64,000 nt of DNA. Source: Balanoglossus misakiensis. Lineage: Eukaryota; Animalia; Hemichordata. The position numbers and the translations under genes are program-made. The notes under the pieces were generated by a model. That model was not told where the DNA came from. It made no database searches and saw nothing but the letters and a program-made list of their open reading frames with translations. This document shows positions 10,756-38,700 of this stretch, piece by piece; positions within the stretch are counted from its first letter, which is position 1, and each line of letters opens with the position of its first letter. The stretch is from the NCBI GenBank assembly GCA_040954595.2, contig CM082598.2, positions 7,207,097-7,271,096 on the forward strand, written 5' to 3'.

Positions 10756-10765
10756 ATCTCCACCA
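10756..10765 (-). promoter_or_regulatory. Primer binding site, probably tRNA-Ala
   Basis: Minus strand TGGTGGAGAT lies 2 nt after the LTR end and is complementary to the ...AUCUCCACCA 3' end typical of eukaryotic tRNA-Ala. Confidence 0.75.
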
Positions 10766-10767
10766 TG

Positions 10768-14960: not shown

Positions 14961-17900
14961 TTTGTAATGTCAAATTATAGTGCGTTTGGCCATGTATTAA
15001 CCCAGGGATTTACAATTAACTTGAAATCCCCATATGCATTAAATACCCATGTCAAAGCGAAGTGTTTGCATCACTATCTACCGTGATTCATCATCAAGCT
15101 TGCATCGCCATTTACCCTGATGCAAAGAATCAGATTCAATGTCACCGTTGCATTAGCAATGTCAAATTACAGTGCTTTTTGACACGTATTAACCCAGGAA
15201 TTGACTCTGACGCATCATCAAGCATGCTTCACAATTTGCCCTGATGCAAAGAATCAGTTTTAGTGTCACTATTGCATAAGCAATGTCAAATTACAGTGCT
15301 TTTGGACACGTATTAACCCAGGGATTTATAATCAACTTGAAATCCCCATATGCATGTTATACCTATGTCAAAGCGAAGTGTTTGCATCACTCTCTACCGT
15401 GATAATCATCAAGCTTGCTTCGCCATTTACCCTAACACAAAGAATCAGATTTAGTGTCACCATTGCATTAGCAATGTCAAATTACAGTGCTTTTGGCTAC
15501 GTATTAACCTGGAGATTTACAGACAACTTCAAATACCCATGCATATGCATTAAATACCTATGTCAAAATGCAGTGTTTGCATCATCAAGCATGCTTCACT
15601 ATTTGCCCTGATGCAAAGAATCAGATTCAATGTCACCATCGCATTAGCAATTTTAAATTACAGTGCTTTTCGACACAGATTAACTGAGGGATTTATAATC
15701 AACTTGAAATCCCCATATGCATTTTATACCCATATCAAAGCGAAGTGTTTTCATCACTCTCTACCATTATGCATCATCAAGCCTGCATCGCCATTTACCC
15801 TGATGCAAAGAATCACATTGAATGTCACCATTGCATTAGCAATGTCAAATTACAGTGCTTTTGGACACGTATTAACCCAGGAATTTTCAGTCAACATTAA
15901 ATACTCATGCAAATACATTAAATACCTATGTCAAAGTGCAGAGCTTGCATCACCATCTACTCTGATCCATCTTTAAGCTTGCTTCGCCATTTGCCCTAAT
16001 GCAAAGAATTACATTCAATGTCACCATTGCATTAGCAATGTCAAATTACAGTGCGTTTGGCCACGTATTAACCCAGGGATTTACAATTAACTTGAAATCC
16101 CCATATGCATTAAATACCCATGTCAAAGCGAAGTGTTTGCATCACTATCTACCGTGATTCATCATCAAGCTTGCATCGCCATTTACCCTGATGCAAAGAA
16201 TCAGATTCAATGTCACCGTTGCATTAGCAATGTCAAATTACAGTGCTTTTCGACACGTATTAACCCAGGAATTGACTCTGACGCATCATCAAGAACGCTT
16301 CACAATTTGCCCTGATGCAAAGAATCAGTTTTAGTGTCACTATTGCATAAGCAATGTCAAATTACAGTGCTTTTGGACACGTATTAACCCAGGGATTTAT
16401 AATCAACTTGAAATCCCCATATGCATGTTATACCTATGTCAAAGCGAAGTGTTTGCATCACTCTCTACCATGATAATCATCAAGCTTGCTTCGCCATTTA
16501 CCCTGATACAAAGAATCAGATTTAGTGTCACCATTGCATTAGCAAAGTCAAATTACAGTGCTTTTGGCTACGTATTAACCTGGAGATTTACAGACAACTT
16601 CAAATACCCATGTATATGCATTAAATACCTATGTCAAAATGCAGTGTTTGCATCATCAAGCATTCTTCAGCATTTGCCCTGATGCAAAGAATCAGATTCA
16701 ATGTCACCATTGCATTAGCAATGTCAAATTACAGCGCTTTTGGCAACCTAGGGATTTTCAATCAACTTTTAATCCCCCTGTATGTATTTTAAACCCTGGT
16801 GTCAAAGGTTAGTGTTTGTATCACCATTGACCCAAGTGCATCATCAAGCATTCTTCAGCATTTGCCCTAATGCAAAGAATCAGATTCAATGTCACCCTTG
16901 CATTAGTAATTTTAAATTACAGTGCTTTTGGCAATGTATTAACCTCTGGATTTATAGTCAACTTTAAATATCAATGCATATACATTAAATACCCATATCA
17001 AAGTGCAGAGCTTGCATCACCATCTACTCTTATGCATCATCAATCAGGCTTCACAATTTGCCCTAATGCAAAGAATCAGTTTTAGTGTCACTATTGCATA
17101 AGCAATGTCAAATTACAGTGCTTTTGGACACGTATTAACCCAGGGATTTATAATCCACTTGAAATCCCCATATGCATTTTATACCCATGTCAAAGCGAAG
17201 TGTTTTCATCACTCTCTACCATTATGCATCATCAAGCCTGCATCGCCATTTACCCTGATGCAAAGAATCACATTCAATGTCACCATTGCATTAGCAATGT
17301 CAAATTACAGTGCTTTTGGACACGTATTAACCCAGGAATTTTCAGTCAACATTAAATACCCATGCAAATACATTAAATACCTATGTCAAAGTGCAGAGCT
17401 TGCATCACCGTCTAATCTGATCCATCATTAAGCTTGCTTCGCCATTTGCCCTAATGCAAAGAATTACATTCAATGTCACCATTGCATTAGCAATGTCAAA
17501 TTATAGTGCGTTTGGCCATGTATTAACCCAGGGATTTACAATTAACTTGAAATCCCCATATGCATTAAATACCCATGTCAAAGCGAAGTGTTTGCATCAC
17601 TATCTACCGTGATTCATCATCAAGCTTGCATCGCCATTTACCCTGATGCAAAGAATCAGATTCAATGTCACCGTTGCATTAGCAATGTCAAATTACAGTG
17701 CTTTTTGACACGTATTAACCCAGGAATTGACTCTGACGCATCATCAAGCATGCTTCACAATTTGCCCTGATGCAAAGAATCAGTTTTAGTGTCACTATTG
17801 CATAAGCAATGTCAAATTACAGTGCTTTTGGACACGTATTAACCCAGGGATTTATAATCAACTTGAAATCCCCATATGCATGTTATACCTATGTCAAAGC

Positions 17901-20900
17901 GAAGTGTTTGCATCACTCTCTACCGTGATAATCATCAAGCTTGCTTCGCCATTTACCCTAACACAAAGAATCAGATTTAGTGTCACCATTGCATTAGCAA
18001 TGTCAAATTACAGTGCTTTTGGCTACGTATTAACCTGGAGATTTACAGACAACTTCAAATACCCATGCATATGCATTAAATACCTATGTCAAAATGCAGT
18101 GTTTGCATCATCAAGCATGCTTCACTATTTGCCCTGATGCAAAGAATCAGATTCAATGTCACCATCGCATTAGCAATTTTAAATTACAGTGCTTTTCGAC
18201 ACAGATTAACTGAGGGATTTATAATCAACTTGAAATCCCCATATGCATTTTATACCCATATCAAAGCGAAGTGTTTTCATCACTCTCTACCATTATGCAT
18301 CATCAAGCCTGCATCGCCATTTACCCTGATGCAAAGAATCACATTGAATGTCACCATTGCATTAGCAATGTCAAATTACAGTGCTTTTGGACACGTATTA
18401 ACCCAGGAATTTTCAGTCAACATTAAATACTCATGCAAATACATTAAATACCTATGTCAAAGTGCAGAGCTTGCATCACCATCTACTCTGATCCATCTTT
18501 AAGCTTGCTTCGCCATTTGCCCTAATGCAAAGAATTACATTCAATGTCACCATTGCATTAGCAATGTCAAATTACAGTGCGTTTGGCCACGTATTAACCC
18601 AGGGATTTACAATTAACTTGAAATCCCCATATGCATTAAATACCCATGTCAAAGCGAAGTGTTTGCATCACTATCTACCGTGATTCATCATCAAGCTTGC
18701 ATCGCCATTTACCCTGATGCAAAGAATCAGATTCAATGTCACCGTTGCATTAGCAATGTCAAATTACAGTGCTTTTCGACACGTATTAACCCAGGAATTG
18801 ACTCTGACGCATCATCAAGAACGCTTCACAATTTGCCCTGATGCAAAGAATCAGTTTTAGTGTCACTATTGCATAAGCAATGTCAAATTACAGTGCTTTT
18901 GGACACGTATTAACCCAGGGATTTATAATCAACTTGAAATCCCCATATGCATGTTATACCTATGTCAAAGCGAAGTGTTTGCATCACTCTCTACCGTGAT
19001 AATCATCAAGCTTGCTTCGCCATTTACCCTGATACAAAGAATCAGATTTAGTGTCACCATTGCATTAGCAAAGTCAAATTACAGTGCTTTTGGCTACGTA
19101 TTAACCTGGAGATTTACAGACAACTTCAAATACCCATGTATATGCATTAAATACCTATGTCAAAATGCAGTGTTTGCATCATCAAGCATGCTTCACTATT
19201 TGCCCTGATGCAAAGAATCAGATTCAATGTCACCATCGCATTAGCAATTTTAAATTACAGTGCTTTACGACACAGATTAACTGAGGGATTTATAATCAAC
19301 ATGAAATCCCCATACGCATTTTATACCCATGTCAAAGCGAAGTGTTTTCATCACTCTCTACCATTATGCATCATCAAGCCTGCATCGCCATTTACCCTGA
19401 TGCAAAGAATCACATTCAATGTCACCATTGCATTAACAATGTCAAATTACAGTGCTTTTGGACACGTATTAACCCAGGAATTTTCAGTCAACATTAAATA
19501 CTCATGCAAATACATTAAATACCTATGTCAAAGTGCAAAGCTTGCATCACCATCTACTCTGATCCATCTTTAAGCTTGCTTCGCCATTTGCCCTAATGCA
19601 AAGAATTACATTCAATGTCACCATTGCATTAGCAATGTCAAATTACAGTGCGTTTGGCCACGTATTAACCCAGGGATTTACAATTAACTTGAAATCCCCA
19701 TATGCATTAAATACCCATGTCAAAGCGAAGTGTTTGCATCACTATCTACCGTGATTCATCATCAAGCTTGCATCGCCATTTACCCTGATGCAAAGAATCA
19801 GATTCAATGTCACCGTTGCATTAGCAATGTCAAATTACAGTGCTTTTCGACACGTATTAACCCAGGAATTGACTCTGACGCATCATCAAGAATGCTTCAC
19901 AATTTGCCCTGATGCAAAGAATCAGTTTTAGTGTCACTATTGCATAAGCAATGTCAAATTACAGTGCTTTTGGACACGTATTAACCCAGGGATTTATAAT
20001 CAACTTGAAATCCCCATATGCATGTTATACCTATGTCAAAGCGAAGTGTTTGCATCACTCTCTACCGTGATAATCATCAAGCTTGCTTCGCCATTTACCC
20101 TGATACAAAGAATCAGATTTAGTGTCACCATTGCATTAGCAAAGTCAAATTACAGTGCTTTTGGCTACATATTAACCTGGAGATTTACAGACAACTTCAA
20201 ATACCCATGTATATGCATTAAATACCTATGTCAAAATGCAGTGTTTGCATCATCAAGCATGCTTCACTATTTGCCCTGATGCAAAGAATCAGATTCAATG
20301 TCACCATCGCATTAGCAATTTTAAATTACAGTGCTTTACGACACAGATTAACTGAGGGATTTATAATCAACATGAAATCCCCATATGCATTTTATACCCA
20401 TGTCAAAGCGAAGTGTTTTCATCACTCTCTACCATTATGCATCATCAAGCCTGCATCGCCATTTACCCTGATGCAAAGAATCACATTCAATGTCACCATT
20501 GCATTAGCAATGTCAAATTACAGTGCTTTTGGACACGTATTAACCCAGGAATTTTCAGTCAACATTAAATACCCATGCAAATACATTAAATACCTATGTC
20601 AAAGTGCAGAGCTTGCATCACCATCTACTCTGATCCATCATTAAGCTTGCTTCGCCATTTGCCCTAATGCAAAGAATTACATTCAATGTCACCATTGCAT
20701 TAGCAATGTCAAATTACAGTGCGTTTGGCTACGTATTAACCCAGGGATTTACAATTAACTTGAAATCCCCATATGCATTAAATACCCATGTCAAAGCGAA
20801 GTGTTTGCATCACTATCTACCGTGATTCATCATCAAGCTTGCATCGTCATTTACCCTGATGCAAAGAATCAGATTCAATGTCACCGTTGCATTAGCAATG

Positions 20901-23900
20901 TCAAATTACAGTGCTTTTCGACACGTATTAACCCAGGAATTGACTCTGACGTATCATCAAGAATGCTTCACAATTTGCCCTGATGCAAAGAATCAGTTTT
21001 AGTATCACTATTGCATAAGCAATGTCAAATTACTGTGCTTTTGGACACGTATTAACCCAGGAATTTTCAGTCAACATTAAATACCCATGCAAATACATTA
21101 AGTACCTATGTCAAAGTGCAGAGCTTGCATCACAGTCTAATCTGATCCATCATTAAGCTTGCTTCGCCATTTGCCCTAATGCAAAGAATTACATTCAATG
21201 TCACCATTGCATTAGCAATGTCAAATTACAGTGCGTTTGGCCACGTATTAACCCAGGGATTTACAATTAACTTGAAATCCCCATATGCATTAAATACCCA
21301 TGTCAAAGCGAAGTGTTTGCATCACTATCTACCGTGATTCATCATCAAGCTTGCATCGCCATTTACCCTGATGCAAAGAATCAGATTCAATGTCACCGTT
21401 GCATTAGCAATGTCAAATTACAGTGCTTTTCGACACGTATTAACCCAGGAATTGACTCTGACGCATCATCAAGAATGCTTCACAATTTGCCCTGATGCAA
21501 AGAATCAGTTTTAGTGTCACTATTGCATAAGCAATGTCAAATTACAGTGCTTTTGGACACGTATTAACCCAGGGATTTATAATCAACTTGAAATCCCCAT
21601 ATGCATGTTATACCCATGTCAAAGCGAAGTGTTTGCATCACTCTCTACCGTGATAATCATCAAGCTTGCTTCGCCATTTACCCTGATACAAAGAATCAGA
21701 TTTAGTGTCACCATTGCATTAGCAAAGTCAAATTACAGTGCTTTTGGCTACATATTAACCTGGAGATTTACAGACAACTTCAAATACCCATGTATATGCA
21801 TTAAATACCTATGTCAAAATGCAGTGTTTGCATCATCAAGCATGCTTCACTATTTGCCCTGATGCAAAGAATCAGATTCAATGTCACCATCGCATTAGCA
21901 ATTTTAAATTACAGTGCTTTACGACACAGATTAACTGAGGGATTTATAATCAACATGAAATCCCCATATGCATTTTATACCCATGTCAAAGCGAAGTGTT
22001 TTCATCACTCTCTACCATTATGCATCATCAAGCCTGCATCGCCATTTACCCTGATGCAAAGAATCACATTCAATGTCACCATTGCATTAGCAATGTCAAA
22101 TTACAGTGCTTTTGGACACGTATTAACCCAGGAATTTTCAGTCAACATTAAATACCCATGCAAATACATTAAATACCTATGTCAAAGTGCAGAGCTTGCA
22201 TCACCATCTACTCTGATCCATCATTAAGCTTGCTTCGCCATTTGCCCTAATGCAAAGAATTACATTCAATGTCACCATTGCATTAGCAATGTCAAATTAC
22301 AGTGCGTTTGGCTACGTATTAACCCATGGATTTACAATTAACTTGAAATCCCCATATGCATTAAATACCCATGTCAAAGCGAAGTGTTTGCATCACTATC
22401 TACCGTGATTCATCATCAAGCTTGCATCGTCATTTACCCTGATGCAAAGAATCAGATTCAATGTCACCGTTGCATTAGCAATGTCAAATTACAGTGCTTT
22501 TCGACACGTATTAACCCAGGAATTGACTCTGACGTATCATCAAGAATGCTTCACAATTTGCCCTGATGCAAAGAATCAGTTTTAGTATCACTATTGCATA
22601 AGCAATGTCAAATTACTGTGCTTTTGGACACGTATTAACCCAGGAATTTTCAGTCAACATTAAATACCCATGCAAATACATTAAGTACCTATGTCAAAGT
22701 GCAGAGCTTGCATCACAGTCTAATCTGATCCATCATTAAGCTTGCTTCGCCATTTGCCCTAATGCAAAGAATTACATTCAATGTCACCATTGCATTAGCA
22801 ATGTCAAATTACAGTGCGTTTGGCCACGTATTAACCCAGGGATTTACAATTAACTTGAAATCCCCATATGCATTAAATACCCATGTCAAAGCGAAGTGTT
22901 TGCATCACTATCTACCGTGATTCATCATCAAGCTTGCATCGCCATTTACCCTGATGCAAATAATCAGATTCAATGTCACCGTTGCATTAGCAATGTAAAA
23001 TTACAGTGCTTTTTGACACGTATTAACCCAGGAATTGACTCTGACGCATCATCAAGCATGCTTCACAATTTGCCCTGATGCAAAGAATCAGTTTTAGTGT
23101 CACTATTGCATAAGCAATGTCAAATTACAGTGCTTTTGGACACGTATTAACCCAGGGATTTATAATCAACTTGAAATCCCCATATGCATGTTATACCTAT
23201 GTCAAAGCGAAGTGTTTGCATCACTCTCTACCGTGATAATCATCAAGCTTGCTTCGCCATTTACCCTAATACAAAGAATCAGATTTAGTGTCACCATTGC
23301 ATTAGCAATGTCAAATTACAGTGCTTTTGGCTACGTATTAACCTGGAGATTTACAGACAACTTCAAATACCCATGCATATGCATTAAATACCTATGTCAA
23401 AATGCAATGTTTGCATCATCAAGCATGCTTCACTATTTGCCCTGATGCAAAGAATCAGATTCAATGTCACCATCGCATTAGCAATTTTAAATTACAGTGC
23501 TTTTCGACACAGATTAACTGAGGGATTTATAATCAACTTGAAATCCCCATATGCATTTTATACCCATATCAAAGCGAAGTGTTTTCATCACTCTCTACCA
23601 TTATGCATCATCAAGCCTGCCTCGCCATTTACCCTGATGCAAAGAATCACATTCAATGTCACCATTGCATTAGCAATGTCAAATTACAGTGCTTTTGGAC
23701 ACGTATTAACCCAGGAATTTTCAGTCAACATTTAATACCCATGCAAATACATTAAATACCTATGTCAAAGTGCACAGCTTGCATCACCATCTACTCTGAT
23801 CCATCTTTAAGCTTGCTTCGCCATTTGCCCTAATGCAAAGAATTACATTCAATGTCACCATTGCATAAGCAATGTCAAATTACAGTGCTTTTGTACACGT

Positions 23901-26900
23901 ATTAACCCAGGGATTTATAATCTACTTGAAATCCCCATATGCATGTTATACCTATGTCAAAGCGAAGTGTTTGCATCACTCTCTACCGTGATAATCAAGC
24001 TTGCTTCGCCATTTACCCTGATACAAAGAATCAGATTTAGTGTCACCATTGCATTAGCAAAGTCAAATTACAGTGCTTTTGGCTACGTATTAACCTGGAG
24101 ATTTACAGACAACTTCAAATACCCATGTATATGCATTAAATACCTATGTCAAAATGCAGTGTTTGCATCATCAAGCATGCTTCACTATTTGCCCTGATGC
24201 AAAGAATCAGATTCAATGTCACCATCGCATTAGCAATTTTAAATTACAGTGCTTTACGACACAGATTAACTGAGGGATTTATAATCAACATGAAATCCCC
24301 ATATGCATTTTATACCCATGTCAAAGCGAAGTGTTTTCATCACTCTCTACCATTATGCATCATCAAGCCTGCATCGCCATTTACCCTGATGCAAAGAATC
24401 ACATTCAATGTCACCATTGCATTAGCAATGTCAAATTACAGTGCTTTTGGACATGTATTAACCCAGGAATTTTCAGTCAACATTAAATACCCATGCAAAT
24501 ACATTAAATACCTATGTCAAAGTGCAGAGCTTGCATCACCATCTACTCTGATCCATCATTAAGCTTGCTTCGCCATTTGCCCTAATGCAAAGAATTACAT
24601 TCAATGTCACCATTGCATTAGCAATGTCAAACTACAGTGCGTTTGGCTACGTATTAACCCAGGGATTTACAATTAACTTGAAATCCCCATATGCATTAAA
24701 TACCCATGTCAAAGCGAAGTGTTTGCATCACTATCTACCGTGATTCATCATCAAGCTTGCATCGTCATTTACCCTGATGCAAAGAATCAGATTCAATGTC
24801 ACCGTTGCATTAGCAATGTCAAATTACAGTGCTTTTGGACACGTATTAACCCAGGGATTTATAATCATCTTGAAATCCCCATATGCATGTTATACCTATG
24901 TCAAAGCGAAGTGTTTGCATCACTCTCTACCGTGATAATCATCAAACTTGCTTCGCCATTTACCCTGATACAAAGAATCAGATTTAGTGTCACCATTGCA
25001 TTAGCAATGTCAAATTACAGTGCTTTTCGACACGTATTACCCCAGGAATTGACTCTGACACATCATCAAGAATGCTTCACAATTTGCCCTGATGCAAAGA
25101 ATCAGTTTTAGTGTCACTATTGCATAAGCAATGTCAAATTACAATGCTTTTGGACACGTTTTAACCCAGGGATTTATAATCAACTTGAAATCCCAATATG
25201 CATTAAATACCCATGTCAAAGCGAAGTGTTTGCATCACTATCTACCGTGATTCATCATCAAGCTTGCATCGCCATTTACCCTGATGCAAAGAATCAGATT
25301 CAATGTCACCGTTGCATTAGCAATGTCAAATTACAGTGCTTTTGGCTACGTATTAACCTGGAAATTTACAGACAACTTCAAATACCCATGCATATGCATT
25401 AAATACCTATGTCAAAATGCAGTGTTTGCATCATCAAGCATGCTTCACTATTTGCCCTGATGCAAAGAATTAGATTCAATGTCACCATCGCATTAGCAAT
25501 TTTAAATTACAGTGCTTTTCGACACAGATTAACTGAGGGATTTATAATCAACTTGAAATCCCCATATGCATTTTATACCCATATCAAAGCGAAGTGTTTT
25601 CATCACTCTCTACCATTATGCATCATCAAGCCTGCATCGCCATTTACCCTGATACAAAGAATCAGGTTTAGTGTCACCATTGCTTTGAATGTCAAATTAC
25701 AGTGTTTTTGGCTATGTATTAACCTGGGGATTTACAGACAACTTTAAATAACCAGGCATATGCATTACATACCTATGTCAAAGTGCAGACCTTGCATCAC
25801 ATTCTACTATGATGCATCATTAAGCTTGCTTCGCCATTTGCCCTAATGCAAAGAATCAGATTCAATGTCACCCTTGCATTAGCAATTTTAAATTACAGTG
25901 CTTTTGACCATGTACTAACCTGGGGATTTAGAGTCAACTTTAAATATCGATGCGTATGCCTTAAATACCCATGTCAAAATGCAGTGTTTGCATTATCAAG
26001 CATGCTTCACAATTTGCCCTGATGCAAAGAATCAGTTTTAGTGTCACTATTGCATAAGCAATGTCAAATTACAGTGCTTTTGGACATGTATTAACCCAGG
26101 GATTTATAATCAACTTGAAATCCCCATATGCATGTTATACCTATGTCAAAGCGAAGTGTTTGCATCACTCTCTACCGTGATGATCATCAAGCTTGCTTCG
26201 CCATTTACCCTGATACAAATAATCATATTCAATGTCACCGTTGCATTAGCAATGTCAAATTACAGTGCTTTTTGACATGTATTAACCCAAGAATTTTAAG
26301 TCATCCTTTAATCCCCCTGTCTGCATTTTAAACCCTTGTGTCAAAGTTTAGTGATTGCACCACAATTGACCTAGGTGCATCATTAAGCATTCTTCAGTAT
26401 TTGCCCTGATGCATAGAATCAGATTTAATGTCACCCTTGCAATAGCAATTTTCAATTACAGTGCTTTTGGCCATGTGTTAACCAAGTATTTAGAGTCAAC
26501 TTTGAATATCAATGCATATGCATTAAATACCCATGTCAAAGTGCAGTGTTTGCAGCACCATTGACCCTGATGCATCATCAAGCATGCTTCACAATTTGCC
26601 CTGATTTAGAGAATCAGATTTAGTGTCACCATTGCTTTGTAATGTCAAATTACAGTGCTTTTCGCTACGTATTAACCTGGGGATTTACAGACAACTTTAA
26701 ATAACCAGGCATATGCATTACATACCTATGTCAAAGTGCAGACTAAAAATGTCACCTTTGCATTAGCAATTTTAAATTACAGTGCTTTTGACCATGTATT
26801 AACCTCAGGATTTAGAGTCAACTTTAAATATTAATGTGTATGCATTAAATACCCATGTCAAAATGCAGTGTTTGAATCATCAAGCATGCTTCACAATTTG

Positions 26901-29900
26901 CCCTGATGCAAAGAATCAGTTTTAGTGTCGCTATTGCAGTAGCAATGTCAAATTATAGTGCATTTGGCCACGTATTAACCCAGGGATTTACAATTAATTT
27001 GAAATCCCCGTATGCATTTTATGCCCATGTCATAGTTAAGTGTTTGCATCACTATCTACCCTGATGCATCATCAAGCTTGCTTCGCCATTTACCCTGGTG
27101 CAAAGAATCAAATTCAATGTCACCGTTGCATTAGCAATGTCAAATTACATTGCGTTTGGCCAGGTATTACCCCAGGAATTTTCAGTCAACTTTTCACCCC
27201 CCTGTATGCATTTTAAACCCTGGTGTCAAAGTTTAGTGTTTGCATCACCATTGACCCTGGTGCATCATAAAGCATTCTTCAGCATTTGCCCTTATGCAAA
27301 GAATCAGATTCAATGTCACCGTTGCATTAGCAATGTCAAATTACAGTGCTTTTGGACACGTATTAACCATAGGATGTATAATCAACTTGAAAACCCCATA
27401 TGCATTAAATACCCATGTCAAAGCGAAGTGTTTGCATCACTATCTACCATGATGCATTATCAAGCTTGCTTCGCCATTTACCCTGATGCAAAGAATTAGA
27501 TTCAATGTCACCGTTGCATTAGCAATGTCAAATTTCCGTGTTTTTGGACACATATTAACCCTGGGATTTATAATCAACTTGAAAACCCCAGATGCATTTT
27601 ACATCCATGTCAAAGTGAAGTGTTTGCATCACTATCTACCATGATGCATCATCAAGGTTGCATCGCCATTTACCCTGATGCAAAGAATCAGATTCAATGT
27701 CACCGTTGCATTAGCAATGTCAAATTACAGTGCTTTTGGACATGTATTAACCCTAGAATGTATAATCAACTTGAAAGCCCCATATGCATTAAATACCCAT
27801 GTCAAAGCGAAGTGTTTGCATCACTGTCTACCGTGATGCATCATCAAGCTTGCTTCGCCATTTACCCTGATGCAAAGAATCACATTTAATGTCACTGTTG
27901 CATTAGCAATGTCAAATTACAGTGCTTTTGGACACGTATTAACCCTAGGATTTATAATCAACTTGAAAACCCCATATGCATTAAATACCCATGTCAAAGC
28001 GAAGTGTTTGCATCACTATCTACCGTGATGATCATCAAGCTTGCTTCGCCATTTACCCTGATACAAAGAATCATATTCAATGTCACCGTTGCATTAGCAA
28101 TGTCAAATTACAGTGCTTTTTGACATGTATTAACCCAGGAATTTTAAGTCATCCTTTAATCCTCCTGTCTGCATTTTAAACCCTTGTGTCAAAGTTTAGT
28201 GATTGCACCACAATTGACCTAGGTGCATCATTAAGCATTCTTCAGTATTTGCCCTGATGCATAGAATCAGATTCAATGTCACCCTTGCAATAGCAATTTT
28301 CAATTACAGTGCTTTTGGCCATGTGTTAACCAAGTATTTAGAGTCAACTTTGAATATCAATGCATATGCATTAAATACCCATGTCAAAGTGCAGTGTTTG
28401 CAGCACCATTGACCCTGATGCATCATCAAGCATGCTTCACAATTTGCCCTGATTTAGAGAATCAGATTTAGTGTCACCATTGCTTTGTAATGTCAAATTA
28501 CAGTGCTTTTCGCTACGTATTAACCTGGGGATTTACAGACAACTTTAAATAACCAGGCATATGCATTACATACCTATGTCAAAGTGCAGACTAAAAATGT
28601 CACCTTTGCATTAGCAATTTTAAATTACAGTGCTTTTGACCATGTATTAACCTCGGGATTTAGAGTCAACTTTAAATATTAATGTGTATGTATTAAATAC
28701 CCATGTCAAAATGCAGTGTTTGAATCATCAAGCATGCTTCACAATTTGCCCTGATGCAAAGAATCAGTTTTAGTGTCGCTATTGCAGTAGCAATGTCAAA
28801 TTATAGTGCATTTGGCCACGTATTAACCATAGGATGTATAATCAACTTGAAAACCCCATATGCATTAAATACCCAAGTCAAAGCGAAGTGTTTGCATCAC
28901 TATCTACCATGATGCATTATCAAGCTTGCTTCGCCATTTACCCTGATGCAAAGAATTAGATTCAATGTCACCGTTGCATTAGCAATGTCAAATTTCCGTG
29001 TTTTTGGACACATATTAACCCTGGGATTTATAATCAACTTGAAATCCCCATATGCATTTTACATCCATGTCAAAGTGAAGTGTTTGCATCACTATCTACC
29101 ATGATGCATCATCAAGGTTGCATCGCCATTTACCCTGATGCAAAGAATCAGATTCAATGTCACCGTTGCATTAGCAATGTCAAATTACAGTGCTTTTGGA
29201 CATGTATTAACCCTAGAATGTATAATCAACTTGAAAGCCCCATATGCATTAAATACCCATGTCAAAGCGAAGTGTTTGCATCACTGTCTACCGTGATGCA
29301 TCATCAAGCTTGCTTCGCCATTTACCCTGATGCAAAGAATCACATTCAATGTCACTGTTGCATTAGCAATGTCAAATTACAGTGCTTTTGGACACGTATT
29401 AACCCTAGGATTTATAATCAACTTGAAAACCCCATATGCATTAAATACCTATGTCAAAGTGAAGTGTTTGCATCACTATCTACCGTGATGCATCATCAAG
29501 CTTGCATCGCCATTTACCCTGATGCAAAGAATCACATTCAATGTCACTGTTGCATTAGCAATGTCAAATTACAGTGCTTTTGGACACGTATTAACCCTAG
29601 GATTTATAATCAACTTGAAAACCCCATATGCATTAAATACCCATGTCAAAGCGAAGTGTTTGCATCACTATCTACCGTGATGCATCATCAAGCTTGCATC
29701 GCCATTTACCTCGATGCAAAGAATCACATTCAATGTCACCGTTGCATTAGCATGTCAAATTATAGTGCTTTTGGCCATGTATTAACCTGGGGAGTCAACT
29801 TTAAATATCAATGCGTATGCATTAAATACCCATGTCAAAAGCAGTGTTTGCATCATTAAGCATGCTTCACAATTTGCCCGATGCAAAGAAACAGATTTCG

Positions 29901-30717
29901 TGGCACCATTGCATTAGCAATGTAAAATTAGAGTGCTTTTGGCTACGTATTAACCTGGGGATTTACAGACAACTTAAAATACTCATGCATATGCATTAAA
30001 TACCTATGTCAAAGTGCAGAGCTTGCATCACTGTCTACTCTGATGCATCATCAAGCTTGCTTCACCATTTGCCCAGGATGCAAAGAATCACATTCAATGT
30101 CACCATTGCATTAGCAATGTCAAATTACAGTGCTTTTGGACACGTATTAACCCAGGGATTTTCAGTCAACTTTTAATCCCTCTGAATGCATTTTATAACT
30201 ATGTCAAAGTGCATATTTTCAGTCAACGTTTAATCCCCCTGTGTGCATTTTAAACCCTGGTGTCAAAGTTTAGTGATTGCATCACCATTGACCCTGGTGC
30301 ATCAAACAGCATTCTTCAGCATTTGCCCAGATGCAAAGAATCCGATTCAATGTCACCCTTGCGCATTAGCAATTTTAAATTTTAGTGCTTTTGGCCATGT
30401 ATTCACCTGGGGATTTACAATCAACTTTTAATCCCCATATGCATTATATTCCAATGTTAAAGTGAAGGGCTTGAAACACCATCTACCCTGATGCATCATC
30501 AAGCTTGATTCACCATTTACCCTGATGCAAAGAATTAGATTTAGTGTCACAGTAGCATTAGCAATGTCAAATAAAAGTGCTTTTGGCCACGTATCAATCT
30601 AGGGATTTACAGTCAAGTTTAAATTGCTCTGTATGCATTTTATACCTATGTCAAAAGTGCAGAGCTTGTATCACCATTGACCCTGATGCATCATCAAGCA
30701 TGCTTCAACATTTACCC
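14961..30717. repeat. Satellite array, 192-bp basic monomer, with a 1071-bp six-monomer higher-order repeat
   Basis: AATGTCAAATTACAGTGC-type anchor at 14966, 15158, 15282, 15473, 15649, 15841 and 16037 gives spacings 192/124/191/176/192/196 = 1071. ORF-track repeats recur at 1071, 1583 and 2526 bp. Confidence 0.97.
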
Positions 30718-31179
30718 AACCATACCAGTGTTCGAACCCTCGATCCTTTAACCACTTGAAAATGACTTTATGTGACAGAATGACCTTTCCGTATGGTGCC
30801 TTGTTTAGCTCCTTGTCAGAGTTCAAGAGAATTTGGAAAAGTGCAAATTAGTCTCTTTGAATTTCCAACAACTCGTCAGCTCACATATCCCGATGACCAG
30901 TTCCCGTGCTTCTTACATGTCATAATACTGATCACTAGACACGCAGTTGTACACTTAGCGGGAAACGTTAATAATATATCGAGACAAGAAAAGACTTAAT
31001 TGTGGGCAATTTAAACACAACATTTTGAGTAAACTGGGTAAAATGGGATTAAAGTTGTATTATAATGACATGTCGAAAAGAATCTACTTCAATTTGTTCA
31101 TTTCCGAAATTTGAGAATGTGAATATGCATGTTTTATTCGCCATATATGAACTCCAATGAAAAGTTATGTTTCCAGCTT

Positions 31180-31232
31180 AGGTATTGGTGGATTTGAACC
31201 ACCTGACATCAGAAGACGCCTCCAGAATACCT
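31180..31232 (-). ncRNA. Candidate 53-nt tRNA-like (mascRNA/menRNA-like, D-armless) RNA element
   Basis: AGGTATT-CTGGA-GGCGTC-TTCT-GATGTC-A-GGTGG-TTCAAAT-CCACC-AATACCT: perfect 7-bp acceptor stem, canonical 5-bp T stem with 7-nt TTCAAAT loop, 6-bp middle stem, no D stem. Expression is not shown. Confidence 0.6.
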
Positions 31233-31304
31233 TCAATTTGGTTGCATAATTTTCATGTGAATGTTCATAATATAGCGAGTGATTAATCTCAAATTTATTG
31301 TTTT

Positions 31305-31328
31305 GGGGGGATGGGGGTGGGGATGGGG
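31305..31328 (+). other. G-quadruplex-forming motif
   Basis: GGGGGG-AT-GGGGG-T-GGGG-AT-GGGG: four runs of at least 4 G with 1-2-nt loops. Confidence 0.6.
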
Positions 31329-31919
31329 CAGCGGTTCAAGTAGCATATCCTGCAAGCCAATTTGAAACAATGTGTCATGTGGTTAAACTGAAAGAAATTG
31401 TTGAACTGTAACAATGGGCCAGTCAAAATAGCATCTGCTAATTATGCACACAATAGTGTGATGGGTTAGTGGTTAAGTTTACTTTTACCTTAGCATTATA
31501 TAACACACTATCGTGTTCATAATCTCGCAGAGCTCATTTCACAATTGTTTTAAAATAAAGCAAGATAACTACTTGTATGATTACATATCTAATTTACGCG
31601 CCTAAAGGGCAGTTAAAAACCTCAGACCAGTTACAAAAGAGGAAAAAAAACTGTCCTCTCCTCCTCTCACCCCATGATCTAAGCTAAATTTGGAATTTGG
31701 ATGGGGTGGGGAGGTTTAGCTAACCTAACATTTTCTGCCTGTCTGTCGCGTACAATGTGTCGATGCGCGAATACGATCACGGGTACCGTTGCGAGAAATT
31801 CCACCGAATAACGATGCTGACGAGTATTATCTATCTGAGAAATAATAGCATGTTATTCATAAAATATACACATTAACCAATGAATGAACCAACATGATTA
31901 TTAGACCCTGGACACTTAT

Positions 31920-32480
31920 TTAACGTTTTATCATTATTATACCTCTGTCATCATCATCAATATTAACACCCTTGTATACTTAATATCACCATAAGCCATC
32001 ACCGCAATTATTAATCGTTATTATACCCTTCCATGATTGTTACCTTTATTAAACCCGACACAGTTATCACCATTTATTATACCCTTCTCATTCATATACC
32101 CATTATAACCTGTGTACACAAGCCATCATCATATTATAAACCCATTATTATACCTTTTTTATACCAGTCACATTTGTTACCCTATTATCATTCCCTTCAC
32201 ACAAGCAACCACTGTTACCCCTTTATAACCTGTGTACACTAAAATTTTACCATAAGCCGTCATCACATTTGTAACCCTTTTATTACCCCTTTATAACCTG
32301 TGTACACTAAAATTTTACCATAAGCCATCATCACATTTGTAACCCTTTTATTAAACCATTCATATTTGTTCGCCTTTATTATACCATACACATTATGAAC
32401 CTATTATCATACCCTGCACAAAGCCATTGCTGTTAACCTTATTTTAGCATAAGTAATCACTACCAATTATTAACCTGATT
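31920..32480. repeat. Degenerate low-complexity TTATACCC-like repeat with a ~67-bp tandem duplication (32217-32350)
   Basis: ACCCCTTTATAACCTGTGTACACTAAAATTTTACCATAAGCC occurs twice; many TTATACC-like motifs surround it. Confidence 0.65.
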
Positions 32481-32579
32481 TATTGGACTATTAAGTTTTA
32501 TATTACGATCACTTCGTTTTGTACTCCTATATAACTCTACCTCATAATTTCGGTCAATAGGTTTATTATGTTGAAACTC

Positions 32580-33200
32580 CACTTCTCCATCCTTCCACTT
32601 CTCCATCCTTTAAGTTGACGCTCCACGGTACCATCCATCCATCAAAGTTTATATTTTAGCAGGTTGACTATGGTTGACGCACCGCTCCATCCATCCATCC
32701 ATCAAAGTTTAATATTAGTAGGTTGACTATGGTTGACACTCTGCTCCATCCATCCATCCATCAAATTTTACGTTAGTAGGTTGATTATGGTGTTACCAGT
32801 GAGCCCTACAGGAAAAAAAAAGAGAAAAAAGAGAAAGAAACTCTTCTTCTCCATCCTTCCACTTCTCCATCGTTTAAGTTGACGCTCCATGGCACCATCC
32901 ATCCATCAAAGTTTATATTTTAGCAGGTTGACTATGGTTGACGCCCCACTCCATCCATCCATCAAAGTTTATATTTAGTAGGTTGACTATGGTTGACGTT
33001 CTGCTCCATCCATCCATCAAAGTTTAATATTAGTAGGTTGACTATGGTTGACGCTCCGCTCCATCCATCCATCAAAGTTTATATTAGTAGGTTGACTATG
33101 GTTGACACTCCGCTCCACCCATCCATCAAATTTTACGTTAGTAGGTTGATTATGGTGTTACCATTGGGGCCTACAGGGAAAAAAAGAAGAGAAGAGAGAA

Positions 33201-33307: not shown

Positions 33308-34676
33308 TAAAGCTGCAAGCAGCGTTGGTGGGGCACAAACGGTTCCCATGGTAACCAGCGAATCCTAAAGCTGTATATGCTGTGGATACCAAGATATGGG
33401 AAAGTAGGTCAAAGGTCACCTGAGTTCACCCAAATTTGGGCAAAACATTTTGACACCATACTTGTCCATGACCAACAAAAAACAAACCTCTAGCCCTATT
33501 GGTTAGCCTGGAATTAGATATGTCCATAATTAATGAGGTAACATAAAAGACTCCAAAAGGTGTTCAATCCCTCCAAAAGCCAAGGCTCTATCCTGTCTGG
33601 ATGCCGAGATATATGAAGGAAGGTCAAAGGTCACCTGAGGTCACCAAAATTTGAGCAAAACATTTTGACACCACACATGTCCTTAACCAACAAAAACCAA
33701 ACCTCTAGCCCTGTTGGTTAGCTTGGAATAAGATATGCACATAATTAATGAGGTATTGTGTAAGACTCTATTAGGTGGTCAATCCCCCAATAGCCAGGGC
33801 TGTAACTGTTCTGGATGCTGAGATATTGGAAAGTAGGTCAAAGGTCACCCACAATTTGGGCATAAATTTTGACCCCATAGTGGGCCATGTCCAACAAAAA
33901 CCAGACCTGGAGCCCTATTGGTTAGCCTGGATTTAGATATGCAGAAAAATGATGTTTCAGAAATAGGTCAAAGGTCATTGCCAAAATATTTGTGTCATGT
34001 CCTGACAGCATTGGTACCCATGTCCACAAAATTCATGACTGTAGTGCTTTTACAAGAGGAGGTATGGGGAATATGCATATATAATTAGTTCGTTTAAAAC
34101 TGGGTCAAAGGTCATGTGAAAATTGTGCCCCAAAATTGTGACAAGTTCCGGTCATATGATGACTTATATCCACAAAAATAATTTCTGTGGTGTAAACATT
34201 TTGGCTATAAAACGGAATTTACATGGAAATCCAATATGGCCGCCATAATGATCGACCAATCACAGTGCACTTCACAAACTTGAAAGACATAGGTTAGGTG
34301 ACCGCATACCCCGAATCCCATAACTCGGCGATCACTGCTTCTGGAGAAATAGATTTTTAAAGTTTTAAGTAATTTTTCAGAAAAAAAATTGTAGCAAAAA
34401 AACTTTATATTTGACATCATGATTTCAATGGGGTAAAATAATGGACAGAAGGTAGGCTACCTGCACACAAAATTTGAACTCGATTGGCCCAGTAGTTTTT
34501 GAGAAGGAGTCATTTAACGGTTTTTGGAAAATCCAATATGGCCGCCAGGTCACGTGACTAATTAAATATTCACGGCCACTGTAGGTCTACTCATTGGCCC
34601 CTATCACTCTACAAAGTTTCAGCCCCGTAGGTGCTGCGGTTTTCCAGATCTACCTGGCCGGGCTTGTGCCCCTAAT
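33308..34676 (-). mobile_element. Non-autonomous Helentron/HINE-like element with internal ~214-bp tandem units
   Basis: Terminal hairpin GCTGC-AA-GCAGC at 33312; subterminal inverted repeats GGGGCACAA (33330-33338) / TTGTGCCCC (34664-34672); TAAT ends; AGGTCAAAGGTCA anchors at 33407, 33622 and 33835. The family assignment is inferred from architecture. Confidence 0.55.
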
Positions 34677-35788
34677 GATAGCATTAATGTGGCAAGCCAG
34701 CCCAACACAACATACTGCGGGTCAAGGGGTGCATATGGTCAATTAATGAAAAAAATTAAGGTGCAACCAACATTGGCTAGGTCTACGCAGTTCCTATGGA
34801 TACCAGAGAGTGCCAATGCTGTATCTGATATGTTTATAGGAAAGTTGATCAAAGGTCACCAAGAGCTCACCCAAAATTGTCAACAAATTTTTCTTCCAAA
34901 ATGATCAGTGTAAAATGAAAAACAAGACTTCTGGCTCTATTGGTTAACCTGGTTATAAGGTGTGCCAGCCTTCAACATTTTAAGGCAGTATCTGCTGTGC
35001 ATGCCAAGGCATGGAAAAATAGGTTAAAAGTCATCAAAAGTCATCAAACCAAAGCCATCAAAAATGTCAGAAAAAAATTTGATTGCATAGTGGTCAATGG
35101 TCAAGGAAACCCAGACTCAAAGCTTCATTGTCTAGTCTACAATTACGTAAGCACATATTTATAAGATTATCATTGGTCAAGAAATTCAGCAAAAAAATTA
35201 AGTCCAATAGTAGAGCATGTTCATAAAAAATTCAACCTGTAACAATGTGGGTAAGCTCAGCATTAGATATGCACATATTTATAAGGTCAACATTGGTCCA
35301 GTGGATCCCAAATGTAACAAAAATACCTAAGTCCCATACTTGTCCATATTCATCAAAAACCAAACCTCTAGTGCTACTAGTCTTGCCGCAATAATATATT
35401 CAGAAAAGAATACAGGTGCCAAATGTAGAACGAAGTTCAATGCCAAAATTATCAAAATATTTGGGTTATGTCCTGGCAGGAGTAATATTAATGTGACAAA
35501 AATCATCACTGTTGTGCTTTTCAACAAGAGGCACATCTACGAATAATTAAGTTCTGAAAAAAACTGGATCAAAATACATGCGAAAGTTGCCCAAAAAATG
35601 TATTCTGGTCATATGAAGACTCGTATCTATAAAAAGAATTGGTGTGCAATCAATGAGTAGCCCAGAAAAAGGAAATTTTAGTTTTTAATCAGAATTCATA
35701 AAATCCAATTTGGCTTCAATAAGCTTTAATTAAGTTCTGAAAGATCTGGATCAAAAGACAAATGAAATTTGCCAAAAATTTGTATTAA

Positions 35789-38700
35789 CCAGATATCTCC
35801 CAAATCGTAATCAGTATGAAGCTCTCATGGCTGCCCAGATCAGATCAAGTTGCAAGTTTTAATGACCTGCCCAGGCACCGGTCATTCTAATTACTCAAAT
35901 CTTAATTACTTGTAACCCGAAACTGGTGAAGCTGTTTGAATGCTTTCAAATACAGTTTAGGAGGTCAGTCTGTTGCTGCTGTTTTGCAAAGCTCTCAAGT
36001 ATACTTCAGACGGGCAGAATTAAACTTGTAACATGGATTTTGGTGAGTACAAGTTTATGTATGACTGGTGATATACCTTCAGTCAACAAGCAGAACTGGC
36101 AAAATACAAAAGTTGGCTGTGATTGCTGACAAAACTGACCAGGGGTCAGATTACGATTCACTGCATTACCAACAGTTCAGTGTCTGGCAATTCTCTGTGC
36201 TTTCTGTATATTTTGTCTAATGGGCGGGCTAATGACAAGTGTTCTCCTATACTTGTCATTACAGATAAAGTGGTGCATGATTACAGAATGTCCACACGAG
36301 AAATTGCCTCTTTACAAGTCACTGAAGAAGAAAGTGCTCTTCTTACAGGTGAATCAACTACACGGTCTGGGGCTGTGCGAAGACACGTGTACTTTAGGGA
36401 AGATGGGAGCATTACCCCTACTCCTCCAGACAGGGGTGACGAGCAAGGACAGGGAGAAGTAGTTTCTGGTGCCGAAGCCAGCACTACAGATGGTGAGATT
36501 CCCAGCAGATCTCACCAGGGAAATGAGTCTCCGATGGACATTTCCGACAACGAACAAGACATTTCGGCAAACAGATCTATGAGGGCTAGAAAGCGAATCA
36601 GGTATGAACAGTTGGATGACACTGAAAGTGAAGAATGGAGCAGTGATCCTGATTATGCCCCTTCTTCAGATCCCGATTCTGATATTGATACAACATCTGG
36701 TGACGAGGACGAATCGGCCGATGAAGGATTGACGGAAGGGGCACGTCGACGTGTTCGCAATGTACCCCTCACCAGAATAGAATCTACTTGGCGGGAGAGC
36801 GGTTACACAGAACCAACTCATCACGATGATGATGACGACAGTGACAGTGATGATAGCGATGACTGGTCCTATAGATTGAAGCCACACAACAATCTGCATG
36901 CCTTCACCGGCAGTCCTGGTGCCTCGGTAGATTTGGGAGATGAACCCACTCCCCTTAGTACGTTCCAGAAAATTTTCCCACCATCACTGGTAACAAAGCT
37001 GCGACAAGAAACCAACAGCTACGCCAGGTGGGTGAGACGGCAAACTGGTAAGGAGGACAGATTTTGGTCACCAGTTGACAACGATGAGATGCAAGCCGTC
37101 ATCGGTATATTGATATTGATGGGTGCAGATCCAAAACATGAAGTCGCTGACTACTGGTCGACAAATAGATCACTCCGAAATGACTTCATTGCCAGTGTTA
37201 TGAGCAGAAATCGGTTTCAGAAGATAATGCAGTATTTCCACTGCAATGACGCTGACCGAGACCCAGCTAATATGGAGGTGGGTGAAGCACGAAGGAGGGC
37301 AAGACAGGCACAACCTATGTATAAGGTGGCACCAGTACTTGACGCTGTAATGGCAAACTCTCGTGAGTGCTATGGCCTGCATGAACAGATAGCCATCGAT
37401 GAATCAATAGTGGCATACAAGGGACGATACAACGGTATTCCTACTGTATTCATCAAGGGAAAACCACACGCGAAAGGCTTCAAAGTCTATACCCTTGCAG
37501 ACAGTGTCACTAATTACATGGCAAATATGAAGTTCATGACAACAACTGGCAGTCATGAAAACGATATGCGTGATGTCTCAAGAACGACAGCCATCTGCGT
37601 AGACCTGGTACAGCATGTACAGGGACAGTATCACACCCTTTTTACGGACAGTTTCTACACAAGCATGCCATTGGCGACAACACTGCTTGAGGAGTACCAG
37701 ACATATCTGGTTGGCAGCATCCGGCAAGATAGAGTGGGTTTTCCTAATGCACTACGTACAAACCCCAAAAGGAACCCAAACAGTGCGCAGATAGCAGGGT
37801 TACAAAGGGGACAGTTTGTCACTCTGCAGAAGGGCAACTTGGTAGTGGTCGCATGGAAAGATTCGAGCCTGTTGTATTTAGTGACTAACTGTTATGAAGG
37901 CTATAGAACGGATGGCCAACGAGTGGTCCGATACGTAAAGTCGGCTCAATTACTGAGAAAGATTGCGTACAGCCTGCCAGCGCCTGATGTGGTTTCCAAG
38001 TACAACCAGTACATGGGTGGTGTCGACAGAGCCAATCAGCTAAGATCGTACTATACATCTCAGCGACAAACCCACAAATGGTGGAAGTACATTTTCTTCT
38101 TCCTGCTGGACACTGCGATATCAAATAGCTGGATAATCTACACCGAACTGGTTGATGAGCGGAAAAAGCACAAGGCCTTCCAGGTCGATGTTGGCAATGC
38201 AATGGTTGGTGGCTTTACTTCCCGCAAACAAATGCTAACCAGCACGGCACCACCGATACACACATACAAGCATCACAGCTTGGTGAAAGGGGATGGCAGA
38301 GGTGCAAGCTGTAGAATGTGTATAAAGATGGGAAGGAAAACCCCGAGTGGCTGTTTTGTCACCACAGTGTTCCTGTGCAGCCAGTGCCGTATACACCTTT
38401 GCAAAGACTGCTTCCTACCCTACCATCACGTAGCCACAGGTAGTCCAAGTGTTGTGGCTGTTACCCAAACAGAGGTGGATGACCTAAATGAGGCAATGAG
38501 ACGGTGGACTATAGCACAACCTCGAGGCAGAGGAAGACCGTCTACAACCGGGACAGGGAGGCAGCAGCCTGCAGCCGCCGAGCCACATGCTGGACCCAGT
38601 GGACAACAGTCTGTGAATCGCACAGCAAGAAGGGGACGTGGTGCTTCCAGAGGAACTGCAAGATCGGTCGCCGCAGAAAGACAGCAGTCCATCAATGAAG

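What the first reader, a model, noticed from the sequence alone, without database searches (positions are those of the whole stretch)
31180..31232. Stand-alone 53-nt D-armless tRNA mimic (mascRNA/menRNA-like) in invertebrate-type DNA
Seen: the minus strand folds into exact tRNA top-half geometry, with a perfect 7-bp acceptor stem AGGUAUU/AAUACCU (next pair is A-A, so the discriminator is A), a 5-bp T stem GGUGG/CCACC with UUCAAAU loop (B-box consensus), a 6-bp middle stem with two G-U pairs and a 4-nt loop (no usable anticodon), and a 5-nt CUGGA linker in place of the D arm that keeps a GG. A TTTT lies 16 nt downstream (31163-31160), a TATATTAT ~35-42 nt upstream and an AATAAA ~60 nt upstream. 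Known: vertebrate mascRNA/menRNA are shrunken tRNA mimics cut by RNase P/Z to end MALAT1/NEAT1, and the 12-bp acceptor+T helix is what RNase P, RNase Z and the CCA-adding enzyme recognise. Inference: this is either an RNase P 3'-end-processing signal for an unannotated minus-strand transcript or a minimal Pol III small RNA, possibly a new family. I see no MALAT1-type U-rich/A-rich triple helix upstream.
Basis: partly seen in the sequence, partly recalled or inferred. Interest (0 to 1): 0.8.

Follow-up and report, generated by a model that had tools for sequence, protein, structure and literature searches.

The report
Multi-copy armless tRNA mimic, acorn worm
A 53-letter stretch in what is likely an acorn-worm genome is predicted to fold like a tRNA that lacks one arm and its anticodon; it sits inside a DNA unit that likely has tens of copies or more, and it is likely a small RNA trimmed by the tRNA-cutting enzymes, though no RNA from it has been seen.

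Summary
The fold is there as described: 12 Watson-Crick pairs in acceptor plus T stem, a canonical T loop and a 6-bp middle stem. It holds with 400-nt flanks and is rare by chance (0 perfect matches in 176 Mb simulated). ARAGORN and Rfam do not call it. It is not stand-alone. Contigs of two runs that behave as genomic DNA cover it and both flanks at 5-45 times the depth of a neighbouring piggyBac, so it lies inside a repeated unit of at least 1.2 kb, next to a 15.8-kb satellite. Lineages that differ by 8-15% downstream collapse to one path over the element and about 83 nt of trailer. The one change seen inside it keeps a pair (U-A to U-G). This hints at selection but is statistically weak. It is not a mascRNA/menRNA member (no D stem, no triple helix, no Rfam hit), not a SINE head and not a Helenus LTR. 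Best reading (0.38): a multi-copy small-RNA gene (TATA, 11-nt leader, 16-nt trailer, T4) trimmed by RNase P and Z. Rivals: MALAT1-like cut signal (0.25), inert passenger (0.27), chance (0.07). No RNA data were available.

The parts
31180..31232 (-). tRNA-like core, 53 nt: acceptor stem 1-7/47-53, 5-nt linker with GG, 6-bp middle stem with 4-nt loop, one A, T stem-loop 30-46
   Evidence: one listed variant at 31186 turns U-A into U-G
31179..31179 (-). predicted discriminator A; no CCA encoded
31267..31274 (-). TATA-like box, first T 31 nt before a CA at 31244-31243 (inferred start site)
   Evidence: unchanged in X1 record 5, whose 3 differences lie at 31153, 31233, 31234; function inferred
31233..31243 (-). 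predicted 11-nt 5' leader; positions -1 and -2 vary between copies; predicted weak pairing with the trailer leaving a 2-nt bulge
31160..31178 (-). 15-nt trailer after the discriminator, then TTTT (possible Pol III terminator)
   Evidence: T4 is common in this DNA (22-28% per 25 nt)
31133..31138 (-). downstream AATAAA (possible poly(A) signal) inside the block shared by all lineages
31097..31232 (-). block over which divergent lineages of the family collapse to one contig path in run X2
   Evidence: tables 3 and 8: records 9 and 10 both end at 31126, one contig covers 31153 and 31186 and ends at 31232; inferred from truncated tables
30769..31950 (.). minimum extent of the multi-copy unit that carries the element; true ends not found
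   Evidence: (depth, contigs spanning both flanks) against (piggyBac control)
14966..30717 (.). adjacent 15.8-kb array of 192-bp units, directly 3' of the unit on the minus strand; not shown to belong to it

Best explanation
The 53-nt element is predicted to fold as a tRNA without D arm or anticodon, lies inside a likely multi-copy DNA unit, and is likely a small-RNA gene whose short precursor would be trimmed by RNase P and RNase Z to a 54-nt RNA (57 nt with CCA). Shown: the sequence, its uniqueness in the window, the predicted fold, contigs that span both flanks at high depth, and one pair-keeping variant. Inferred: transcription starts about 11 nt upstream under the TATA box, helped by the B box in the T arm. 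It ends at the T4 16 nt downstream (Pol III) or, less likely, after the downstream AATAAA (Pol II). The 12-bp acceptor-T helix and T loop are what RNase P, RNase Z and the CCA-adding enzyme would read. The product cannot decode; it would most likely act as an abundant decoy or ligand for tRNA-binding proteins. The unit was likely multiplied as DNA (segmental amplification or cargo of a DNA transposon), because the upstream flank travels with it.
For: Fold: 12 of 12 Watson-Crick pairs, robust in context, strand-asymmetric, rare by chance. Pre-tRNA-like layout: TATA 31 nt before a CA, 11-nt leader, 16 nt to T4. Multi-copy: in X2, depth is 1,890 at 31186, 3,113 at 31119 and 3,888 at 31234, against 126.8 for a single 2,900-nt piggyBac contig (15-31 times); in X1, 2,263 at 31186 and 12,937 at 31119 against 280-483 (about 5-45 times). 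Conservation: X1 record 5 (31140-31278) has 3 differences, none in the element, TATA or T4. X2 records 9 (30 differences in 358 nt) and 10 (52 differences, 19 gap letters) both stop at 31126; one contig then covers the element and ends at its first base, where two haplotypes split. The only listed change inside is 31186, U-A to U-G. Variable -1/-2 and the lack of U-rich or A-rich tracts within 150 nt upstream fit a disposable leader better than a protected 3' end.
Against: No RNA evidence of any kind. No A box at the tRNA position, which ordinary tRNA promoters need (established knowledge), so an unusual external promoter must be assumed. TATA and T4 are common here (4% and 22-28%) and were picked after the fact. 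The shared block runs about 63 nt past the T4, which a Pol III unit does not explain. The drop in substitutions is weak: in X3 record 17, 1 of 53 in the element against 26 of 328 downstream gives P 0.07, or 0.59 if the 3 unplaced differences fall inside; for 31097-31278, 6 of 182 gives P 0.009, or 0.08 in the worst case. No double-sided compensatory change was seen. One search shows 41 of 87 difference rows and 32 of 318 pieces. The tool warns that contig depth is no copy number, and the run type is only guessed as DNA. Whether a 5-nt linker can reach the T loop is untested.
Confidence: 0.38

Rival explanations
1. Inert passenger: a remnant of a tRNA (nuclear, mitochondrial or SINE-borne) that lost its D arm and part of its anticodon loop and was amplified with a mobile or segmentally duplicated unit. 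It looks conserved only because copies are young or homogenised, and at most its B box serves as a promoter.
For: The window is almost wholly transposon and satellite DNA. tRNA-derived promoter pieces inside mobile elements are known (Helenus, PMC10886601). The statistical support for conservation is weak. Some lineages are within 2-3% of the window copy in the flanks too (X1 record 1; X3 record 22). A second A/B-box-like stretch without pairing lies at 30766-30728.
Against: All 12 top-half pairs are intact, while no tRNA model recognises a parent; promoter remnants keep boxes A and B and mostly do not score as functional tRNAs (PMC10886601), whereas this keeps the fold and lacks box A. A lineage 15% divergent downstream rejoins the common path near the element. 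The flanks hold no reading frame that looks mitochondrial under code 9 (judged by eye), and ARAGORN's mitochondrial mode does not call it at the default threshold. No second copy in the window as a paired LTR would need.
Confidence: 0.27
2. mascRNA logic: the element would be an RNase P/Z cut signal in a longer Pol II transcript of the repeated unit that comes from upstream on the minus strand. The cut would give that RNA a non-polyadenylated 3' end ahead of the downstream AATAAA, and may limit read-through into the satellite.
For: [quoted passage not shown] The shared block includes the downstream AATAAA and about 36 nt beyond. Architecture close to mascRNA/menRNA: full acceptor and T stem-loop, a long anticodon-like stem with a compact loop, and almost none of the usual linker residues (PMC11693755). 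Predicted leader-trailer pairing with a bulge before the cut (probabilities 0.6-1.0) loosely echoes PMC8457004. Multi-copy MALAT1-like modules exist in anole and some fish (PMC10869381, passage). At least 700 nt of upstream DNA travels with the element.
Against: No A-rich tract at the cut site and no U-rich tract within 150 nt (nearest 31397 and 31650). Positions -1 and -2 vary between copies. No open frame of 100 codons or more between 29.9 and 33.1 kb and no evidence of an upstream transcript. The leader-trailer pairing is 5 bp in two pieces.
Confidence: 0.25
3. Chance fold inside a repeat, picked out of a very large scan.
For: The loose descriptor occurs 0.023 times per window, so thousands are expected over 250,000 windows. 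The folding z-score is only -2.6. No homologue in viral, metagenome or prokaryote collections.
Against: 0 perfect matches in 176 Mb, before counting the middle stem that fills the gap and the GG. The lineage collapse starts at the predicted +1, and the one variant keeps the pair. Those collections are of viruses, metagenomes and prokaryotes, so absence is expected.
Confidence: 0.07

Closest known systems
mascRNA / menRNA of vertebrate MALAT1 and NEAT1 (PMC11693755 section read in part; PMC8457004 and PMC12941219 passages)
   Same: 7-bp acceptor stem, 17-nt T stem-loop with a loop beginning UUCAA, a long anticodon-like stem with a compact loop and no anticodon, a GG available for the elbow, almost no linker residues, no encoded CCA, a poly(A) signal downstream.
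   Different: mascRNA has an 11-nt D stem-loop (nt 8-18) and menRNA a 10-nt one; here only 5 unpaired nt. No triple-helix parts upstream. 53 nt against 57-58. No Rfam match. Lies in a multi-copy unit in a non-vertebrate. Cleavage not shown.
Helenus, non-autonomous LTR elements with a tRNA-derived sequence in the LTR (PMC10886601, parts 1-3 of 6 read)
   Same: tRNA-like sequence internal to a repeated unit, with flanks on both sides; GGTTC of box B present.
   Different: Helenus keeps box A (TRGCY and YGG) and has two LTRs in a unit of about 1.3 kb at most; here TRGCY is absent, there is no second copy in 64 kb, and the fold is kept rather than the boxes.
tRNA-derived SINE heads (recalled; introduction of PMC10886601)
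   Same: B box, multi-copy.
   Different: A SINE begins at its tRNA head; here contigs continue 46 nt or more upstream with the same sequence, and box A is missing.
D-armless mitochondrial tRNA-Ser(AGN) (recalled)
   Same: D arm replaced by a short loop; AU-rich acceptor stem; a UCU triplet in the middle loop.
   Different: No 7-nt anticodon loop can be drawn with a paired stem; not called by ARAGORN -mt at the default threshold; flanks not mitochondrial.
Pol III small RNAs with upstream TATA and internal B box, such as tRNA-Sec genes; repeated Pol III units such as Xenopus OAX (all recalled, not read)
   Same: TATA about 30 nt before a likely start, internal B box, T-run terminator, multiple copies.
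   Different: No family match; no proximal sequence element identified; product has no D arm.

Membership tests
mascRNA/menRNA | Match to the Rfam model of the family | tested here: not met
   No hit at gathering over the window, none at E<=10 over 5 kb or 181 nt
mascRNA/menRNA | 7-bp acceptor stem stacked on a T stem-loop with canonical loop | tested here: met
   Predicted fold; reference layout from PMC11693755
mascRNA/menRNA | Small D stem-loop (10-11 nt) carrying the GG | tested here: not met
   5-nt unpaired linker with GG; no D stem in the 12 structures within 3.5 kcal/mol
mascRNA/menRNA | Upstream U-rich ENE and A-rich tract at the cut site (triple helix) | tested here: not met
   Pattern scan of 770 nt upstream: U-rich tracts at 31650 and 31397 (plus a C tract at 31311), A-rich tracts only at 31736 and 31667
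mascRNA/menRNA | Cleavage by RNase P and Z from a long Pol II transcript; CCA addition | not testable with these tools
   No RNA holder listed
mascRNA/menRNA | Synteny with FRMD8/SCYL1 | tested here: inconclusive
   11 of 51 open frames scanned; the strong hits are transposon domains only; no genome held
Canonical or mitochondrial tRNA | Called by ARAGORN or Rfam; 7-nt anticodon loop | tested here: not met
   ARAGORN -mt default lists 16 other places in the window but not this; at a lowered threshold it draws different overlapping structures among 45 calls in 2 kb
tRNA-derived SINE head | Element starts at the tRNA 5' end, upstream flank differs per copy | tested here: not met
   X1 record 5 (depth 2,263) and X3 record 17 run to 31278 with 2 listed differences upstream; no loose end listed at 31233, though 32 loose-end rows are not shown
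tRNA-derived SINE head | Internal boxes A and B | tested here: not met
   B box at 31200; no A-box match on the minus strand between 30600 and 31878
Helenus TRIM | Two LTRs, each with the tRNA-like part, PBS and PPT between | tested here: not met
   Single copy in the window; a solo LTR cannot be excluded
Helenus TRIM | Target-site duplication of 4 bp at the unit's ends | not testable with these tools
   Ends of the unit not found; no genome held

The most novel reading that the evidence does not exclude
A non-vertebrate deuterostome carries, in tens to hundreds of copies, a mascRNA-type RNase P/Z module stripped of its whole D arm that cuts the transcript of a repeated unit at the edge of satellite DNA. 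This would be the first such module outside vertebrates in the literature I could search, the smallest nuclear one, and a hint that tRNA-machinery 3' processing either predates vertebrates or arose twice.
Probability: 0.2. Interest if true: 0.8.

Novelty: new variant of a known kind. Interest (0 to 1): 0.5.

Why it matters
A 2025 survey calls MALAT1 and NEAT1 the only lncRNAs matured by the tRNA machinery (PMC12941219, passages), and MALAT1 is described as present across jawed vertebrates (PMC10869381, passage). A natural 53-nt D-armless substrate in a likely hemichordate would extend this class beyond vertebrates, or define a new multi-copy small RNA. It would also show how small a nuclear RNase P/Z substrate can be in nature. 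Because there are many copies in several lineages, covariation can be tested within one genome assembly. If it is a passenger of a repeat, it is ordinary.

Tried and rejected
1) Expression: no RNA holder was listed; this is no evidence either way. I first read the very high depth (up to 174,000 in X1) as RNA from a MALAT1-like transcript. The control overturned that: the same runs cover a piggyBac evenly through its ends and dispersed repeats at up to 550,000, as genomic DNA would. RNA origin of these runs is not strictly excluded. 2) X3 and X4 look like one data set and hold only trace depth (2-5) of the same lineages, so they are not independent support; X5 holds next to none of the words and was laid only on the control stretch. 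3) Homologues: exact 20-24-nt patterns gave 1 viral locus, 2 metagenome loci and 0 prokaryote loci. All 3 share only the T-arm hairpin, without acceptor or middle stem (by eye). No covariance model was built, as no homologous sequences were in hand. 4) Rfam at E<=10: 4 and 3 weak hits, none a tRNA or mascRNA; the alpha_tmRNA hit is on the opposite strand at E 0.66-0.85. 5) Mitochondrial insertion: rejected. 6) Other structured RNA nearby: 80-nt windows over 30700-32659 reach at best z -2.0 (first-order simulation, 40 per window). 7) Terminal inverted repeats or LTRs for the unit: none convincing. 8) CpG island upstream: ratios of 0.9-1.0 in 200-nt bins at 31600-32200 against 0.60 for the window; too noisy to use. 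10) Literature: searches listed no paper whose title or abstract start describes such an element in a hemichordate ('tRNA-like' with 'hemichordate' 0 papers; 'mascRNA-like' 0 papers). The 2017 paper on MALAT1-like loci is not held, and I read no supplements, so I cannot say whether invertebrates were screened there. 11) Earlier scan findings: no look-alike by sequence, none near this place.

Full report
Observation. The energy is -20.1 kcal/mol, z -2.6, with 3 of 200 shuffles as good. The fold survives 400-nt flanks, and the plus strand folds far worse. A descriptor for a canonical T loop on a contiguous 12-bp helix hits only this place in the window. In simulated sequence it occurs 0.023 times per window when one G-U per stem is allowed, and 0 times in 176 Mb when all pairs must be Watson-Crick with G before the loop. 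This is rare for one window but does not by itself exclude chance in a scan of some 250,000 windows. The TATA-like box, the T4 and both AATAAA are present but common in this DNA (4%, 22-28% and 3% for windows of comparable size).

Known families. ARAGORN finds no tRNA in the window. Its mitochondrial mode lists 16 other places at the default threshold and not this one. Rfam gives nothing at gathering and no tRNA or mascRNA match at E up to 10.

Surroundings. No genome is held. The window is transposon and satellite DNA: chromodomain Gypsy frames at 5.5-14.1 kb, a piggyBac frame at 36123-38795 (11 of 51 frames scanned), a 15,752-bp array of 192-bp units ending 462 nt 3' of the element, and a further repeat family over 33.3-53.7 kb. 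The four best of 37 relatives of the piggyBac protein are from Saccoglossus kowalevskii (48-56% identity; the rest 30% or less), so the host is likely a hemichordate. An earlier AI note on this genome says the same (unchecked). The element occurs once in the window.

It is not stand-alone. Five runs were listed, four holding part of the stretch, none on record as RNA. Contigs of X1 and X2 (one sample, guessed as DNA) cover 30 of 30 bins of 30730-31950; away from the two edge bins the depths run from about 600 to 174,000. I first took this for RNA. The control on 33950-39200 showed one 2,900-nt piggyBac contig with 7 differences at depth 126.8 in X2 (280-483 over several contigs in X1), even to its ends, and dispersed repeats at up to 550,000. 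That is how genomic DNA behaves. Depth at and beside the element is 15-31 times the piggyBac in X2 and about 5-45 times in X1. The tool warns that depth is no copy number, so I conclude only that the unit is multi-copy: tens of copies or more, about 70-140 if the lowest lineage (depth 27) were single. Contigs run through both flanks (X1 record 5, 31140-31278; X3 record 17, 30769-31278), so the element is internal to a unit of at least 1.2 kb and is not the start of a SINE. Because upstream DNA travels with it, the unit was likely multiplied as DNA.

Variation among copies. One search shows 41 of 87 difference rows and 32 of 318 pieces, so what follows is partial. The one listed change inside the element is at 31186, which turns the last acceptor pair from U-A into U-G. 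X1 record 5 has 3 differences in 139 nt (31153, 31233, 31234), none in the element, the TATA box or the T4. In X2, a lineage with 30 differences in 358 nt and one with 52 differences and 19 gap letters both end at 31126. A single contig covers 31153 and 31186 and ends at 31232, the predicted first base, and two haplotypes appear at 31233. I read this as lineages collapsing over 31097-31232, the element plus about 83 nt of trailer with the T4 and a second AATAAA; assemblers can also hide isolated variants. Counting the 32 of 35 placed differences of X3 record 17: 26 in 328 nt downstream, 3 in 83, 1 in 53 (element), 2 in 46 upstream. That gives P 0.07 for the element (0.59 if the 3 unplaced fall inside) and P 0.009 for the 182-nt block (0.08 worst case; Fisher 0.055 and 0.27). 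Against the reading, some contigs are 2-3% from the window in the flanks as well, and no double-sided change was seen. Selection is suggested, not shown.

Homologues elsewhere. Exact patterns found 1 viral, 2 metagenome and 0 prokaryote loci. The 3 hits share only the T hairpin. No animal genome collection could be searched.

Mechanism. The 12-bp acceptor-T helix with a canonical T loop is the part of a tRNA read by RNase P, RNase Z and the CCA-adding enzyme (established knowledge). In mascRNA the T stem-loop and two D-loop guanines form the tRNA-like elbow (PMC11693755). The layout around the element resembles a pre-tRNA unit: TATA 31 nt before a CA, an 11-nt leader whose last two bases vary, 16 nt to a T4. 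I therefore put most weight (0.38) on a multi-copy small-RNA gene whose precursor is trimmed to 54-57 nt. Against it are the missing A box and the conservation beyond the T4. [quoted passage not shown] An inert tRNA remnant carried by a repeat (0.27) fits the neighbourhood but not well the intact pairing without a recognisable parent. Chance is 0.07. Together the two functional readings give about 0.6 that this is a real RNase P/Z substrate. Every step after the fold is inferred; no RNA was seen.

Comparison. It likely works like mascRNA at the level of enzyme recognition but is not a member: mascRNA and menRNA have D stem-loops of 11 and 10 nt, sit behind a triple helix and have an Rfam model that does not match. 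Helenus elements carry tRNA-like promoters inside LTRs, keep boxes A and B, and come with two LTRs (PMC10886601); neither box A nor a second LTR is seen here. Comparisons with mitochondrial tRNA-Ser, tRNA-Sec promoters and Xenopus OAX are recalled, not read.

What I read. PMC11693755: outline and part 1 of 2 of the main text. PMC10886601: parts 1-3 of 6. PMC8457004, PMC10869381, PMC12941219, PMC12016569: passages only. The 2017 paper on MALAT1-like loci: not held, known only through a passage. No supplements were read. Nine searches listed no paper on such an element in a hemichordate; the library lacks most subscription papers.

Verdict. A real, uncatalogued tRNA top-half mimic inside a multi-copy unit of a likely acorn worm, with a weak hint of selection and no expression data. 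New variant of a known kind; interest 0.5.

Noticed in passing
window 14966-30717: 15,752-bp array of 192-bp units with a higher-order repeat of 1,071 bp (124+367+192+388) in its left half and C well above G on the plus strand (3,541 against 2,398). It begins 462 nt 3' of the tRNA-like element.
   Followed up: partly
window 30766-30728, minus strand: A stretch with a D-loop-like AGTGGTTAA followed by a B-box-like GGTTCGAAC, without stems, at the junction between the unit and the array; major lineages stop aligning at 30769.
   Followed up: partly
window 31069-31110; 31288-31361; 31731-31825: Structural variants among copies: a 42-nt tandem duplication in one major lineage, a 72-nt skip of the C-rich tract in a low-depth lineage, and a 93-nt stretch replaced by 155 other letters.
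   Followed up: no
window 36023-39125: piggyBac with an 890-codon open frame and 39-nt inverted repeats at 36150-36188 and 38958-38995; near-identical copies in X1 and X2 (7 differences in 2,900 nt), so probably young.
   Followed up: partly
window 3953-14356: Chromodomain Gypsy retrotransposon (gag and pol frames on the minus strand) with a 3.3-kb stretch present twice at 99.6% identity (3953-7262 and 10768-14069).
   Followed up: partly
window 480-1409, plus strand: 309-codon frame without a Pfam hit at E 0.001 that by eye resembles a DIRS/Ngaro-type tyrosine recombinase (recalled motif, not tested).
   Followed up: no
window 33300-53700: One repeat family of about 800-890-bp units, in tandem and scattered, all in the same orientation; resembles the nested non-autonomous Helentron piles reported for this genome in earlier notes.
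   Followed up: no
window 32573-33156: Two blocks of 55-59-bp tandem repeats with a GGAT microsatellite core, upstream of a G-rich, C-poor degenerate repeat zone (31950-32560, minus strand).
   Followed up: no
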